NCBI GenBank assembly: GCA_963771175.1
Contig: CAVYSY010000025.1
Span: 64,001 to 128,000 of the forward strand
Direction of reading: 5' to 3'
DNA length: 64,000 nucleotides
From: an uncultured delta proteobacterium
GTDB lineage: Bacteria; Myxococcota; Myxococcia; Myxococcales; Myxococcaceae
Shown here: one piece after another, positions 895-6,386 of the stretch
Layout of the letters: each line of letters opens with the position of its first letter
Position numbering within the stretch: position 1 is the first letter of the stretch
Position numbers and translations under genes: made by a program
Notes under the pieces: generated by a model
Seen by the model: the letters and a program-made list of their open reading frames with translations, nothing else
Databases searched by the model: none
What the model was told of the DNA's origin: nothing

Positions 895-1416
895 ATGGCG
901 GAGAGAGCACGGCGGGCAGCGGGAGTGGCGAGGGTGTTCGAGGGGCAGCCCGAGCGGCTCGCGGCGGCATGGCGGCGGGTGCGCTACGCCGAGTCGAAGA
1001 AGAACGGAGCCCCGCCGCGCAACCAGTTGGACGGCGTGGTGGAGCCCTTCATCCGCGAGGTGGGTCGCAACCTCGAGGGCAAGGAGGGCAGCCCGTGGAG
1101 TCGGACGCGAGCCGTGCTGAGGCTGGTGCCGACGCGCGGAGTGCGCGCACTGCACGAGGAGTTCGCCTCGCTGCGCCGCTGCCTGGTGGATGCCGTGGAG
1201 GCGCTCGGCGGGGGTGACGCGGAGCGGGCGGTGGTGAACCGCGCGGTGGACGAGGCGGTGGACTCGGCGGTGGCGCTGCTGGAGCGCCTGGCCAACCCGC
1301 TCGCGCCCAGGCCGCGAGTGCCCTTCGCGGGCGTGGTGGTTCAACTTTTCGAGCGCGCATCGGGGTCGGCGCGGGTGAGGCCCACGACGGACGACGGCCG
1401 CGTGGCGGTGCATTGA
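895..1416 (+). CDS. Hypothetical all-helical protein, possibly RsbRD N-terminal-like
   Basis: 173-aa ORF with a GGAGG RBS and typical codon usage. The motifs EEFASLRR and VNRAVDEAV resemble RsbRD_N-type helices (inference). Confidence 0.7.
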   Translation: MAERARRAAGVARVFEGQPERLAAAWRRVRYAESKKNGAPPRNQLDGVVEPFIREVGRNLEGKEGSPWSRTRAVLRLVPTRGVRALHEEFASLRRCLVDAVEALGGGDAERAVVNRAVDEAVDSAVALLERLANPLAPRPRVPFAGVVVQLFERASGSARVRPTTDDGRVAVH

Positions 1417-1428
1417 GTTGAGGGGGGT

Positions 1429-1630
1429 GCCGACCCGTCCGGCTTGATGCCTCCAGTCACTGGGAGGCGTCCGAGGGCCCGGCGGTTGAAGGGGGCGCGC
1501 TGACGGGATGGGGGTCCCGAGGCGCGAAAAGGGGCGTGCTCCCGCCCGGGGGGACGGTGAGCGCGCAGGAGTGGCCGCAGGAAGCCGCGTGGTCGGGGGG
1601 CCACGTGCCTTGACGGCTGGACGGGTCGGC
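1429..1630 (+). ncRNA. Candidate structured non-coding RNA (~202 nt)
   Basis: A 16-bp closing stem pairs GCCGACCCGTCCGGCT (1429-1444) with GGCTGGACGGGTCGGC (1615-1630) and encloses several hairpins. The non-Watson-Crick pairs are G-U on the + strand. GTTGTTTT follows. Confidence 0.55.
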
Positions 1631-1642
1631 GTTGTTTTCCGG

Positions 1643-1683
1643 GGGCGGATGCGTACGTCAGTGCGCGTCCGCCCACGTCTTTT
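1643..1683 (+). terminator. Hairpin or terminator overlapping the duplicated polA stop codon
   Basis: GGGCGGATGCGTAC-gtca-GTGCGCGTCCGCCC forms a 14-bp stem with G-U pairs, followed by ACGTCTTTT. Confidence 0.5.
1656..1682. repeat. 27-bp direct repeat, copy 1 (att-like duplication of the polA 3' end)
   Basis: CGTCAGTGCGCGTCCGCCCACGTCTTT is identical to 3673-3699 and encodes KTWADAH-stop on the - strand. Confidence 0.95.
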
Positions 1684-1697
1684 CAGGCTTCCGCGCT

Positions 1698-2276
1698 TCA
1701 GGCCTCCCTGAACCTGGTGCCGGTAATCCCCGCGCTCTCCATGGCCCGTTTGACGCGCTCAGTGACGATGATGGCACCCGTCCACCCCCAAGGACGGCAG
1801 ATGCTGACGTCTCCCATGCTGGCCGGATCCACCTTCAATCCCCTGACATTCTGATACTTGCCGACCAGTTCCGGCTCCCCGTCCTCGGGCGTCCAGTGCA
1901 GCGCCGTTTCACACCGGGCGTCGTCGATGCACCGGATGATGTGCAAGGTGTTGAGGATGAAGTAGGGCTCCGTACGCCCTTCCACCTGAGCGGGAATGAA
2001 TTGGACCTCTTTTCCAAGCTCTAGCTGCTCGAAGAGAGAGACGACGCGCTCGGTCACCACGGGAGTGGCAAGCTCGGTCAGACTGAAATCCAGCGGGATG
2101 CCAGGATGGGCGATACCGAGGACAGGTCTTCCTTCCAGATGGAGAATCTTCCCTTTGTCGAACATCCAGGGGTCCAATCTTCTCCCATGCTCATCGACAT
2201 CCTTTTGATGCAACACCCAGCGACCCGGCACATCCATCTCGTCCCACAACTCGAAATAACGGAAAGGAGAGCTCAT
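1698..2276 (-). CDS. Imm11/DUF1629-family immunity protein
   Basis: 192-aa ORF (MSSPFRYFELWDEMDVPGRW..PLDFS..YFILN..IRCIDD..RPWGW..IIVTERVKRAME..GITG..F) directly downstream of the AHH toxin, with motifs typical of myxobacterial Imm11 proteins. Confidence 0.85.
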   Translation of the reverse strand: MSSPFRYFELWDEMDVPGRWVLHQKDVDEHGRRLDPWMFDKGKILHLEGRPVLGIAHPGIPLDFSLTELATPVVTERVVSLFEQLELGKEVQFIPAQVEGRTEPYFILNTLHIIRCIDDARCETALHWTPEDGEPELVGKYQNVRGLKVDPASMGDVSICRPWGWTGAIIVTERVKRAMESAGITGTRFREA

Positions 2277-3656
2277 GGCCTCTCGTGGCAAGTTTGTTGA
2301 GCTTCGAGCCGGACGTGCATACGTCACCAGCAATCCTGTCAAGAGCGTTGATCAGCCTTCTCCTACAGTCGAACTGGGCCTTGCAGTCCCCAAGTTCGGC
2401 TCGGAGGCGACTGAACACCTCTTCATGGTACTCCTTGGGATGTGGACCTACGTGACCTATGAGATAGATGATGTTCGCTGGATCATCGAGGCTCATGCCC
2501 GCTCGGGCGAAGAGAGTCTCGAAACGTGGGGTCCAAGGGCCACCGCTGGCATCTGATGTGTCGTTCTTGTTCGTGGCGAGATGATGACCCTTGGCATCCC
2601 CCTTGTCCGAGGCATCTCGGCACGCCCCCGTCGTCCGGGCGGAAGTGATTGCCGAGGCGACTGCGGAGACCGTCGCGTTCGCTGACACGCCCATGAGCAA
2701 CACCGTGCCATCCGCCACGTTGACGTGAGCACGTGCTCCAGCCCCGACCGTGAATCCTCCCCCAGCGCCGCCTCCGCCACCGAACGCGAAGCGCGGGGGC
2801 GAGAGGCGCGCCCACAGCCCTCCTTTGGGCACTTCCGGCAACCCCTTGGCCAGCTTCGCCCCCGCCACCGTCACCAGCACCCGCAGCCCCACTCCTCCCA
2901 TTGCCTTGCCCGAAGCGCTCGGCCACCGCCTCCAACTGCTCCTGTGTCCTCGCAGCCTCCGCCTCCCGGTACAGGTTCAGGCAGGCCAGCCCAACGTTGT
3001 AGAGTTCCGTCGCGGTGTAGGTCAGCAGACAGCCCCAGCGTCACTGCCGCGGCGAACGCCTTGGAGAACAGCGGCTCGGGCATAGCCCACGCCGCCATGT
3101 ACAGCATCATGGACAGGGCTATGGAATACGCGACCGTGGGAGAGCCTAGCAATTCCAAGGCTGCCTCGCGCACGCCCTCGTCCATGTAGCGTGGCGAGAG
3201 TTTGAGGGCCAGGAACCACCGGCTGTTCTCCAGGGAGGAAGGCAGCGGTATGGATGAAGGACCGTAGACTTCTACGTATCCCGCGTGGACACGCCTCTCC
3301 AGGTCCGAAGGCTGGGTGCTCGTTTGTGGCCCGCAGGCAATGCCTGTCGCGACCACACAGGCCGTCAGTCGCCTGGAGGGGCTCGACTCCGATAGCAGCC
3401 CAGGCGCCTGGAATACCAGCTCCATGGCCTTCACGAACACTCGCGCTTCCTCCACGGAGAACCGTGCCAGGGCCAGGTCCGGCCGGAGAGGTTTGAAGGT
3501 GAGCTTGAGCCCGTCACCGTGTGTGGAGCTGAAATGCTCGCGCACCGTCACGGGCTCCAACACCGAGAGGTGCCCTTCGACCGCGGGCGGAGTCGCTCGG
3601 GCTGGGAGCGGCACCAACAGCAGCAGGCAAAGGGCAAGGACAACGTGCGGAGACAT
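2191..3656 (-). CDS. Polymorphic toxin with a SitA5-like N-terminal region and a C-terminal AHH (HNH-fold) nuclease; frameshift near 3030
   Basis: ORFs 2871..3656 and 2191..2901 join into one protein. It has a signal peptide, YMAAWAMPEPLFSKAFAAAVT (PEP..K motif of SitA-type toxins) and AHH motifs GHHLATNKN and GHVGPHPKEYH. The true stop may be the ATGA overlap at 2273-2276. Confidence 0.8.
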
Positions 3657-3672
3657 CAGTCCTCCCTGAATG

Positions 3673-3699
3673 CGTCAGTGCGCGTCCGCCCACGTCTTT
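3673..3699. repeat. 27-bp direct repeat, copy 2 (functional polA 3' end)
   Basis: Identical to 1656-1682. Confidence 0.95.
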
Positions 3700-6386
3700 C
3701 CCGCCCCCACTTCCACCTTGAGGGGCACCTTGAGCTGCATCACCGCGGACATGCACCGCCGCGACAGCTCCTTGACGGTGTCCACCTCGGCGTCCGGCGA
3801 CTCGAAGAGGAGCTCGTCGTGCACCTGCAGCAGCATCCGCGTGCGCAGGCGCTGCTTCTCCAGCTCCGCCTGCACCGCCAGCATGGCCTTCTTGATGAGG
3901 TCCGCCGCCGTGCCCTGGATGGGCATGTTGATGGCGGCGCGCTCGGCGGCCTGCACCACCTGGCGGTTCTTCGCGTTCAGGTCCGCCATGGGCCGGCGCC
4001 GCCCGAAGAGCGTCTCCACGTAGCCCTTCGTGCGCGCCTCCTTCACCGTCTCGTCGAGGTAGCGCTTGATGCCCGCGTAGCGCGTGAAATAGCGCTCGAT
4101 GATGTCGCGCGCCTCCTCCTGCGGGATGTTGAGTCGCGTCGACAGCCCGTGCGGGCTCAGCCCGTAGGCGATGCCGAAGTTCACCGTCTTGGCCACCCGG
4201 CGCTGATCTCTCGTCACCTGGTCCGGCGCCACGCCGAAGATCTCCGCCGCCGTGCGGCTGTGGATGTCCTCGTCCTGGGCGAAGGCGTCGATGAGGACCG
4301 GGTCCTCGGCGATGTGCGCCAGCAGCCGCAGCTCGATCTGGCTGTAGTCCGCGGAGACGAGCTGGTGGCCCTCCTCGGCGATGAAGGCCCGGCGGATCTC
4401 CATGCCCAGCTCGGTGCGGATGGGGATGTTCTGCAGGTTCGGGTCCGACGAGGACAGCCGCCCGGTGGCCGTGGCCGCCTGGTGGTAGGTGGTGTGGATG
4501 CGCCCATCCCTCGCCACCAGGTCCGGCAGCGTGTCCAGGTAGGTGCTCTTGAGCTTGGACAGCGAGCGGTACTCGATGATGGCGCGCGGCAGCGGGTGGA
4601 TCTCCGCCAGCTTCTCCAGCACTTCCTGGTCCGTGGAGGGGCCCGTCTTGCCGCGCTTGAGGACCGGCAGCTCCAGCTTCTTGTAGAGCACCTCCGCGAG
4701 CTGCGGGTTGGAGCCCACGTTGAACTCGGTGCCCGCGAGGGTGTGAATCTCCTTCACCTTCAGCTCGCAGTCGGCGCCGACCTTCTCGGAGATCTCCCGG
4801 AGGACCCTCACGTCCAGCTTCACGCCGTACCCTTCCATGCGTGCCAGCAGCGGCACCAGTGGCAGCTCCAGCTCGCGCGCGAGCTGTGCCAGCTTCAGGG
4901 CCTCCAGCTCCTCCCACAGCCCGGGCGCCAGCCGCCGCGCCGCGTCCGCCCGGACCGCGTAGGCCAAGGCCACCTCCTGGGGCGAGAAGTCCTTCAGCGG
5001 TCGTGCCTTGCGTCCGCCGGTGGAGGGCAGCTCGGGCAGGTCCGCCTGGAGCCGCTCGCGGGTGAGGATGTCCAGGCCGTGGTCGCGCCGAGAGGCGTCC
5101 AGCAGGTAGCTGAGCAACTCGACGTCGTCCTCCCCTCCCCTCAGCCGGATGCCCTCGCGATCGAGCAGCAGCGTGAGGCTCTTGAGGTCATGCCCGCCCT
5201 TCTTCACGGACTCGTCCTCCAGCACGCCCCGGAGGGCCTCCTGGAAGTCCGCGGGCCGCACCTGCTCCACGCCCAGCCCCTCGTGGCTCAGCGGCACGTA
5301 GCGCGTGGTGCCGTCCTTCAGCGCCACGCCCAGACCCACCAGCGGCGCGGCGTAGGGCAGGCCCTCGTACGCGGGGATGAGCGTCACCGCCCCCGCCTCG
5401 CGCACCGCCTGGGCCAGCGCCTGGAGCGCCTCCTTCGTGGTGACGATCTCCGTCTCCAGGGTCAGCTTCGTGGGCTCCGTCGAGGGCCCCTTCGCGGACT
5501 CCGCCGTGGCTCCCTTCGCCGGCAGCTCCCGGAGCAGCGCGGAGAACTCCAGCTCGGTGAAGAGCTGACGGAGCTGCTCGTCCTTGAGGGGCTGGCGCTT
5601 CAGGTCCTCGACGGACACGTCCAGCTTCAGGTCCGTGCGGAACGTCACCAGGTCGCGCGCGCGCAGGAGGCTCTCGCGGTGCGACTCGATCGCCTCGCGC
5701 ATCTTCGGCTTCTTCACCTCGGAGACGCGCTCGAGCAGCGCGTCCACGCCGCCGAACTGGTGCAGCAGCTCCACCGCCGTCTTCGGGCCGATGCCCGGCA
5801 CCTTGGGGACGTTGTCCACCGCGTCGCCGATGAGCGACAGGTAGTCGCGCATCTGCGTGGGCTCGATGCCCAGCCGCGCCTTCACCTCGGCGGGGTCCGT
5901 GTAGCGCTCGTTCTGCGGATCGTAGAGGTGGACGTCGTCGTCCACGATCTGCACGAAGTCCTTGTCCCCGGTGACGACGAGGACGCAGAAGCCCTCGGCC
6001 TTGGCGCGCTTCGCGAGCGTGCCGATGACGTCATCCGCCTCCCAGCCGGCCACCTCCAGCACGGGGAGGTTGAGCCCCTCCACCACCCGGCGGATGTAGG
6101 GGAACTGCTGGGCCAGGTCCTCCGGCAGGGCCTCCCGGTTGGCCTTGTAGTTGGGATCGATCTTCTGGCGCTCGACGCGGCTCTCCTTGTCGAAGGCGAG
6201 CGCCACGTGCGTGGGATTCAGCTCCTTGAGCGCCTTGAGGACCTGCCGGGTGAAACCCAGGGTGGCGTTGGTGGGCACGCCCTGGCGGTTCGTGAGGGGA
6301 GGAATCGCGTGATAGGCGCGGAAGATGAAGCTGGAGGCGTCGATCAGGACGAGGCGGGGAGCGCCGCTGGAAGGGCTCGGGACCAT
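3675..6386 (-). CDS. polA: DNA polymerase I
   Basis: 903 aa with a 5'-3' exonuclease domain (LIDASSFIFRAYHA, EADDVIGTL) and polymerase motifs ADYSQIELR, AKTVNFGIAYG and LLQVHDEL. Confidence 0.98.
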   Translation of the reverse strand: MVPSPSSGAPRLVLIDASSFIFRAYHAIPPLTNRQGVPTNATLGFTRQVLKALKELNPTHVALAFDKESRVERQKIDPNYKANREALPEDLAQQFPYIRRVVEGLNLPVLEVAGWEADDVIGTLAKRAKAEGFCVLVVTGDKDFVQIVDDDVHLYDPQNERYTDPAEVKARLGIEPTQMRDYLSLIGDAVDNVPKVPGIGPKTAVELLHQFGGVDALLERVSEVKKPKMREAIESHRESLLRARDLVTFRTDLKLDVSVEDLKRQPLKDEQLRQLFTELEFSALLRELPAKGATAESAKGPSTEPTKLTLETEIVTTKEALQALAQAVREAGAVTLIPAYEGLPYAAPLVGLGVALKDGTTRYVPLSHEGLGVEQVRPADFQEALRGVLEDESVKKGGHDLKSLTLLLDREGIRLRGGEDDVELLSYLLDASRRDHGLDILTRERLQADLPELPSTGGRKARPLKDFSPQEVALAYAVRADAARRLAPGLWEELEALKLAQLARELELPLVPLLARMEGYGVKLDVRVLREISEKVGADCELKVKEIHTLAGTEFNVGSNPQLAEVLYKKLELPVLKRGKTGPSTDQEVLEKLAEIHPLPRAIIEYRSLSKLKSTYLDTLPDLVARDGRIHTTYHQAATATGRLSSSDPNLQNIPIRTELGMEIRRAFIAEEGHQLVSADYSQIELRLLAHIAEDPVLIDAFAQDEDIHSRTAAEIFGVAPDQVTRDQRRVAKTVNFGIAYGLSPHGLSTRLNIPQEEARDIIERYFTRYAGIKRYLDETVKEARTKGYVETLFGRRRPMADLNAKNRQVVQAAERAAINMPIQGTAADLIKKAMLAVQAELEKQRLRTRMLLQVHDELLFESPDAEVDTVKELSRRCMSAVMQLKVPLKVEVGAGKTWADAH

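What the first reader, a model, noticed from the sequence alone, without database searches (positions are those of the whole stretch)
1656..3699. Minimal AHH-toxin/Imm11 cassette with no integrase, inserted at the polA stop codon with a perfect 27-bp duplication
Seen: CGTCAGTGCGCGTCCGCCCACGTCTTT occurs at 1656-1682 and 3673-3699. It encodes the last polA codons (KTWADAH-stop). Only a SitA5-like AHH nuclease toxin and its immunity gene lie between the copies, on more AT-rich DNA. Removing one copy plus the cassette restores polA with a 14-bp hairpin (1643-1674) that has the stop codon in its loop, so the target is a palindrome. Known: regenerating a gene's 3' end is the attL/attR signature of site-specific integration, and myxobacteria carry many dispersed polymorphic toxin loci used in kin discrimination. 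Inference: these two-gene identity cassettes may be mobile units inserted by a trans-acting recombinase at housekeeping-gene ends or terminators, where they would be expressed by read-through from polA. I know of no description of this dispersal mechanism.
Basis: partly seen in the sequence, partly recalled or inferred. Interest (0 to 1): 0.82.

Follow-up and report, generated by a model that had tools for sequence, protein, structure and literature searches.

The report
Toxin cassette splitting a shared gene end
In one group of soil myxobacteria, a toxin-immunity gene pair comes and goes at a spot where the end of the DNA polymerase I gene doubles as a transcription stop signal for the opposite strand, and the short flanking repeat most likely persists because each copy keeps one of the two jobs, not because a special enzyme spreads such cassettes around the genome.

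Summary
The 27-bp repeat is real. The polA end is filled with a toxin-immunity cassette in 12 of 19 related genomes, with an unrelated methyltransferase in 1, and is empty in 6. A contig about 99% identical to the window skips exactly the 2017 bp. The repeat is exactly the overlap of two functions: polA's last codons, and the 3' arm plus U-run of a terminator for the opposite-strand transcript. After insertion the copies divide these jobs and drift apart by 0-10 of 27 bases. No integrase sits in any filled allele, and no free attP or circle was seen. Only 1 of 60 other Imm11-type loci tested has a similar gene-end duplication (about 200 bp, unrelated sequence), so genome-wide dispersal by one trans-acting recombinase is not supported. 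Best reading: a recombinase-free islet at a hot spot, kept by selection, swapped and lost through host recombination. A site-specific integrase acting at the hairpin loop is not excluded. The toxins lack the SitA5 lipobox; 8 of 12 start codons overlap polA's stop. The scan's notes on other DNA showed no like finding.

The parts
3675..6386 (-). polA, DNA polymerase I (903 aa), ending KTWADAH-stop
3673..3699 (-). polA-side ('near') copy of the 27-bp repeat: last 25 nt of polA including the stop, plus 2 nt
2276..3656 (-). Polymorphic toxin gene: signal peptide without lipobox, SitA5-like middle region, C-terminal AHH nuclease; frameshifted in this assembly, probably by sequencing error; starts 18 nt after the polA stop; lower coordinate approximate
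1698..2279 (-). Imm11-family immunity gene (193 aa)
1683..1697 (-). 15-nt tandem echo of the immunity gene's last codons; present in 7 of 11 toxin alleles with a right end held, absent in one near-identical contig
1656..1682 (+). Far copy of the 27-bp repeat: loop, 3' arm and U-run of the terminator-like hairpin
1643..1674 (+). Terminator-like hairpin (14 pairs with two G-U, loop 4) followed by a U-run, for the transcript that converges on polA
1427..1635 (+). Conserved structured RNA candidate, closing stem 1429-1443/1616-1630, no Rfam match; ends approximate; flank, not part of the cassette
895..1416 (+). Conserved 173-aa gene of unknown function, convergent on polA; right-hand anchor of the site

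Best explanation
A recombinase-free islet at a bifunctional hot spot. In this genus the last 25 nt of polA also form the 3' arm and U-run of the terminator for the opposite-strand transcript (shown by sequence comparison; function inferred). An insert placed behind polA must leave polA its stop and give the terminator its arm back, so only insertions that duplicate the overlap survive (inferred). The first event was probably an illegitimate or short-homology crossover: the immunity gene's last codons resemble the polA codons just before the core (inferred). Afterwards the near copy keeps the coding job and the far copy the terminator job (shown). The cassette is then mostly inherited vertically, and toxin tips and immunity genes are exchanged, doubled, deleted or hit by IS elements (shown). 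It reached a second lineage with little or no flank, and it is lost cleanly by host recombination between the two copies or replaced by an empty allele (clean empties shown; route inferred). It is expressed by read-through from polA (inferred) and probably acts in killing of non-kin (inferred from family).
For: Both repeat ends equal the functional minima: the stop codon on one side, the end of the U-run on the other. Other Myxococcaceae genera have a separate plus-strand hairpin with U-run at the same place, outside polA, and none of the non-Archangium records has a toxin or a convincing second copy behind polA. Division of labour (with for G012): the near copy lost the AAA that gives the U-run in 8 of 13 filled alleles and in 0 of 6 empty ones; all 12 far copies held keep it, and 8 of 12 lost the stop codon. 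No tyrosine or ordinary site-specific integrase in the filled alleles; the extra DNA in G001 is IS21-type and another DDE IS. Toxin 5' trees follow host clades at shallow depth. The same toxin subfamily sits at other gene ends with only the stop codon shared with the empty site. The one other gene-end duplication is about 200 bp of unrelated sequence. Precedent: the E. coli H47 island encodes no recombinase and excises between its repeats; a perfect 46-bp repeat gave RecA-independent deletion (PMC5426353).
Against: Filled genomes are not one clade (AU p 0.011), and the flanks of clade C side with its empty relatives, not with the other filled clade, so the second gain was nearly flank-free, as an integrase would make it. 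Two unrelated cargoes have the same repeat boundary, and the boundary lies at the loop of a near-palindrome. The repeat is perfect in G000 and G011. A clean empty allele in a 99%-identical strain, which seems to hold a roughly 90%-identical toxin copy on another contig, suggests recent movement. The microhomology argument rests on reading junctions by eye. The near/far counts come from related genomes and are not independent.
Confidence: 0.55

Rival explanations
1. The repeats are attL/attR of a site-specific integrase, acting in trans or lost since. It crosses over at the hairpin loop, and the element supplies the 3' arm and U-run. The toxin cassette and the methyltransferase insert are minimal passengers or relics of larger islands.
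For: Single-core empty sites, including an exact 2017-bp skip. Two cargoes with the same boundary. All 11 toxin alleles with a right end held share one junction, as an element-internal sequence would. At least two gains without long flanks. The repeat ends at the loop of a near-palindrome, which recalls integrases that cross over in tRNA loops (recalled, not tested). The genome has six tyrosine-recombinase matches on other contigs.
Against: No integrase beside the site in 13 filled alleles, apart from a serine-recombinase element that has jumped into the G012 toxin gene itself. No further copy of the core in 41 genomes, in phages or plasmids or in viral contigs (0; 1 match, which is a phage's own polymerase end). 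Copies drift up to 10 of 27 apart. Left ends differ among alleles. A hairpin-improving base outside the core is shared by all 11 toxin alleles and G002 but not by the other 5 empties or G010; a crossover inside the core would not carry it.
Confidence: 0.25
2. Minimal-mobile-element behaviour: one old insertion, after which filled, empty and methyltransferase alleles replace each other by ordinary homologous recombination in the conserved flanks (polA end and the conserved RNA). The repeat is a passive scar, and nothing excises.
For: Variable content between two conserved anchors. The shared right junction and the shared base outside the core fit transfer with a short right flank ending in the conserved RNA. 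The X6 empty allele could be a re-import. The mechanism is documented in Neisseria (PMC3787668, passages).
Against: No donor-type tract was seen in the 200-nt bin of polA nearest its end, or beyond about 100 nt on the right, for clade C. G002's empty site carries the filled-type base, as clean excision predicts. It does not explain how the repeat first arose, twice.
Confidence: 0.17
3. Mis-assembly or chance repeat.
For: The assembly has many frameshifts, and 472 perfect repeats of this size and spacing exist in the genome.
Against: The same two-copy layout stands in 11 other genomes, and contigs of run X1 cover both junctions.
Confidence: 0.01

Closest known systems
Myxobacterial sitAI loci, SitA5 family (PMC8546572, passages; PMC5562445, passages; PMC10047993, passages)
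   Same: Two-gene toxin-immunity operon, AHH nuclease tip, weak match to the SitA5 escort model, many dispersed loci per genome, exchangeable toxin tips.
   Different: No lipobox cysteine after the signal peptide in the 12 polA-site toxins; escort score 62 against a cut-off of 160; not on an Mx-alpha prophage; flanked by a gene-end duplication that I did not find described.
E. coli H47 genomic island (PMC5426353: abstract, Introduction and one Results section read)
   Same: Small island carrying an antibacterial function, flanked by direct repeats, no recombinase of its own, empty sites exist.
   Different: H47 is 13 kb with long imperfect repeats and PCR-shown circles. Here 2 kb, 27 bp, no circle shown, and the repeat is an overlap of a coding end and a terminator.
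Minimal mobile elements of Neisseria (PMC3787668, passages; the original papers not read)
   Same: Different cassettes, or none, between the same two conserved anchors; no mobility genes.
   Different: Here a target duplication flanks the cassette, and no long recombination tracts were seen in the flanks.
Integrase-borne islands that restore the 3' end of a target gene (general knowledge; outlined in the Introduction of PMC5426353)
   Same: Direct repeats that regenerate a gene end; single-core empty site.
   Different: No integrase, no conserved att pair, no attP found.

Membership tests
SitA5 toxin family | C-terminal toxin domain (AHH nuclease among others) | tested here: met
   PF14412, E 1e-17
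SitA5 toxin family | Immunity gene directly downstream in one operon | tested here: met
   Imm11 gene abutting the toxin end
SitA5 toxin family | SitA5 escort domain above the curated cut-off (NF050093, 160 bits) | tested here: not met
   28 bits for the window fragment; 62 bits for the intact G011 allele, over the second half of the model only
SitA5 toxin family | Lipoprotein signal with lipobox cysteine | tested here: not met
   0 of 12 polA-site N-termini show a cysteine after the hydrophobic stretch; most end in an ARA/ARG-type motif. Read by eye, no signal predictor run. G000, G011 and G001 have a cysteine inside or before the hydrophobic stretch. Many toxins at other loci do show a lipobox-like cysteine.
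SitA5 toxin family | TraAB-dependent delivery by outer membrane exchange | not testable with these tools
   Needs competition assays
Integrase-driven island (attL/attR) | Direct repeats at both ends and single-core empty sites | tested here: met
Integrase-driven island (attL/attR) | Cognate integrase in or beside the element | tested here: not met
   13 filled alleles read; G012's and G011's contigs end early
Integrase-driven island (attL/attR) | Excised circle or free attP | tested here: inconclusive
   No back-joint in contigs of 4 runs (contigs drop rare forms); no attP
Integrase-driven island (attL/attR) | The same att core at other members of the cassette family | tested here: not met
Minimal mobile element | [quoted passage not shown] | tested here: met
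   toxin, double toxin, methyltransferase or empty between polA and the 173-aa gene
Minimal mobile element | Homologous-recombination tracts in the flanks | tested here: inconclusive
   One shared site in the first 100 nt on the right, none further out; few informative sites
Recombinase-free island (H47 type) | Excision between repeats without an island-encoded recombinase | not testable with these tools
   Only indirect: G002 and X6 empty alleles

The most novel reading that the evidence does not exclude
A host or phage recombinase acting in trans recognises the terminator hairpin that overlaps the polA stop, and pops integrase-free cassettes in and out of it. A strain could then gain or drop a self/non-self toxin in one step and have it translationally coupled to polA. 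The cargo is a non-lipidated SitA5-like toxin that would need another delivery route.
Probability: 0.17. Interest if true: 0.8.

Novelty: new variant of a known kind. Interest (0 to 1): 0.45.

Why it matters
How myxobacteria gain and lose their many self-identity toxin loci outside prophages is open. This site gives a clean natural series (empty, filled, doubled, other cargo, cleanly emptied again) that can be tested with PCR and a few mutants. It also shows a trap for genome readers: an insertion into an overlap of a coding end and a terminator leaves an att-like repeat without any integrase. If a trans-acting recombinase were found, it would be a new route for switching kin identity.

Tried and rejected
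General att-type dispersal: narrow-window scan, wide-window scan and ten close paralogues gave no repeat above the null except L154. L172p was dropped as two copies of another immunity gene's end in the wrong order for a target duplication. L160 (22 bp) lies in a repeated gene family and within the null (6 of 600 random pairs score 19 or more). A degenerate repeat at G000 C44 (L138) scored 83 against a shuffle maximum of 82: not counted. REP-type or other dispersed repeat: rejected, the core has two copies in the genome. tRNA or tmRNA target: none near; Rfam none. Metagenome scans for the hairpin and for the right junction found nothing. A degenerate pattern search over 11 genomes was uninformative. 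Empty-site search of 44 cassette windows against G000 found five windows (L149, L151, L154, L173 and a spurious second pairing counted within them) with both flanks adjacent, and none in the rest. No RNA holder was listed, so expression is untested. One origin with long-flank transfer was tested and not seen. The Vassallo 2019 PNAS and 2020 ISME J papers were not held; their text and supplements could already list this locus.

Full report
Observation. The 27-mer is at 1656-1682 and 3673-3699, identical, 2017 bp apart, and has no other copy within 4 mismatches in the genome. It holds the last codons and stop of polA. Between the copies, on polA's strand, lie an AHH nuclease toxin and an Imm11 gene at 62.6% GC against 69.4% genome-wide. 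The toxin's frameshifts are probably assembly errors: rpoB in the same window is split too, and contigs of four public runs differ by one base at two of these places, and two runs at the third.

The site across relatives. I read the polA end in 19 genomes: G000, all 17 same-genus handles and G024. Twelve carry the toxin cassette (G000, G001, G004, G006, G007, G009, G011, G012, G013, G014, G016, G017; G012's contig ends inside it). G014 has two cassettes in tandem, G009 an extra immunity gene, G004 an internal deletion, G001 two IS elements. G010 carries a 700-bp methyltransferase insert on the opposite strand between two copies of the same core. Six are empty, with one core inside the hairpin (G002, G003, G005, G008, G015, G024). 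In a pattern scan of species genomes (61 loci), every record with the toxin behind polA is titled Archangium (8 loci); this set overlaps the handles and is not added to the counts. Run X6 has an 18-kb contig about 99% identical to the window's flanks that skips 1655 to 3673 exactly, with 27 letters fitting both sides. A second contig of like depth holds a roughly 90%-identical toxin with an immunity-like gene in another setting. Runs X1, X2 and X3 hold pieces of the filled form.

What the repeat is. The hairpin folds fully only on the plus strand, with G-U pairs, and is followed there by a U-run. Upstream on that strand are a conserved 173-aa gene and a structured RNA candidate whose 16-pair closing stem has no broken pair in 25 sequences and uses G-U pairs that fix the plus strand. 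Other genera have a separate hairpin with U-run at this place, outside polA; here the terminator borrows polA's last codons. The 27 bp run from the end of the U-run to two bases past the stop, which is the stretch both functions need. After insertion the copies part ways. Near against far differ by 0, 0, 3, 4, 5, 6, 7, 8, 9, 9, 10, 10 bases in the 12 alleles with both ends. The near copy lost the AAA in 8 of 13 filled alleles and 0 of 6 empty ones; the far copy kept it in 12 of 12 and lost the stop codon in 8 of 12. These genomes are kin, so the counts overstate independence. The perfect match in this window reflects two copies that both kept the common state.

History. Host trees put filled genomes in two groups with empties between them; holding the 12 toxin-filled genomes and G002 together is rejected (AU p 0.011, quick tree). 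polA-site toxins form nearly one clade: 13 tips plus one G000 paralogue for the N-terminal part, with low support at the base. All 11 right ends held share one junction, so the cassettes have a common origin. The flanks of the second group side with its empty relatives: the transfer carried little flank. One hairpin base outside the core is shared by all 11 toxin alleles and by empty G002, not by the other five empties or G010. This suggests G002 lost the cassette cleanly and that a short right flank travelled with it; convergent change is possible too.

Is it a general mechanism? I scanned 51 windows around other Imm11-type genes: 9 of the 10 other loci of G000, and 42 windows from 40 regions covering 49 of the 57 matches in four complete genomes (3 were polA sites, 5 in G004 were not fetched; one further window was skipped as too short). 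Some of these loci lack a toxin. Against 600 random pairings only L154 stands as a target duplication: about 200 bp of the 3' end of a convergent gene, ending at its stop, unrelated to the polA core and mixed with gene fragments. Of ten close paralogues at other sites, nine could be tested and none has a repeat beyond chance. At one such site, empty in G000, the cassette shares only the stop codon with the empty form. Many of these cassettes do sit just behind a co-oriented host stop codon, which selection for read-through explains without an att site. No attP turned up in 41 genomes, phages, plasmids or viral contigs.

Mechanism. Best reading (0.55): a recombinase-free islet whose repeat is forced by the overlap, with host recombination doing the later gain, swap and loss. 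Rivals: a trans-acting or lost integrase crossing over at the loop (0.25); pure allele replacement through the flanks (0.17). Shown: repeat, polymorphism, second cargo, division of labour, lack of a local integrase, lack of the core elsewhere. Inferred: terminator function, read-through (toxin ATG overlaps the polA stop in 8 of 12 alleles), the first crossover, the route of loss, and a role in kin killing.

Comparison with what is known. sitAI loci are toxin-immunity operons, lipoproteins by definition, 25-80 per genome and often on mobile DNA (PMC8546572, passages; PMC10047993, passages; PMC5562445, passages). The polA-site toxins are built like SitA5 but fail two membership tests: escort score 62 against 160 and no lipobox (by eye). 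PMC12077131 (passages) treats T6SS-delivered AHH toxins and says nothing on such insertions in the passages seen. The closest mobility precedents are the recombinase-free H47 island (PMC5426353: abstract, Introduction, one Results section) and minimal mobile elements (PMC3787668, passages). Searches listed no description of this locus or of a polA-end site, judged from listings; the two main sitAI survey papers were not held, so novelty is provisional. The scan's own notes gave no like finding.

Verdict. New variant of a known kind; interest 0.45.

Noticed in passing
window 1427-1635 (+): Unannotated structured RNA candidate between the 173-aa gene and polA, conserved across Myxococcaceae: fold z -4.7, 16-pair closing stem intact in 25 of 25 sequences, 13 of 44 consensus pairs with changes on both sides, no Rfam match.
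   Followed up: partly
L138:2896-5740 (G000 C44), L035 end (G012 polA site), L144 end (G012): A large serine recombinase element (Resolvase, Recombinase, zinc ribbon, MerR-type HTH) sits at the same conserved codons of the toxin gene in G000 C44 and in G012's polA cassette; its end also appears at a third G012 contig end, whose junction I did not read. It may target these toxin genes. Two more distant copies are on G000 C32 and C39.
   Followed up: partly
L154 (G006:C1, about 12,988,000-12,991,000): Toxin-immunity cassette between a roughly 200-bp duplication of a convergent gene's 3' end; the displaced copy has a 39-bp deletion, and a short stretch beside the immunity gene looks like a group II intron reverse-transcriptase fragment (recalled, not tested).
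   Followed up: partly
window 3656-3600 (-) and L166, L171, L213-L222: A subfamily of SitA5-like toxins that seems to have an ordinary signal peptide and no lipobox cysteine, used at several gene-end sites.
   Followed up: partly
L134 (G000 C38), L146, L170: Toxin-immunity cassettes at the locus behind a gene ending GDAGDRLFGTR (uracil phosphoribosyltransferase-like, recalled), directly behind its stop in G000 and G008, with homologous loci in the five relatives searched.
   Followed up: no
L168 (G008:C1:4448500-4464500): Array of six same-strand immunity genes of this family plus one on the opposite strand.
   Followed up: no
L059: A Hyalangium record has about 1.2 kb extra between polA and the 173-aa gene, without toxin or second core.
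   Followed up: no
window, whole: Many single-base frameshifts in ordinary genes (1-671, rpoB), in line with an error-prone assembly.
   Followed up: partly
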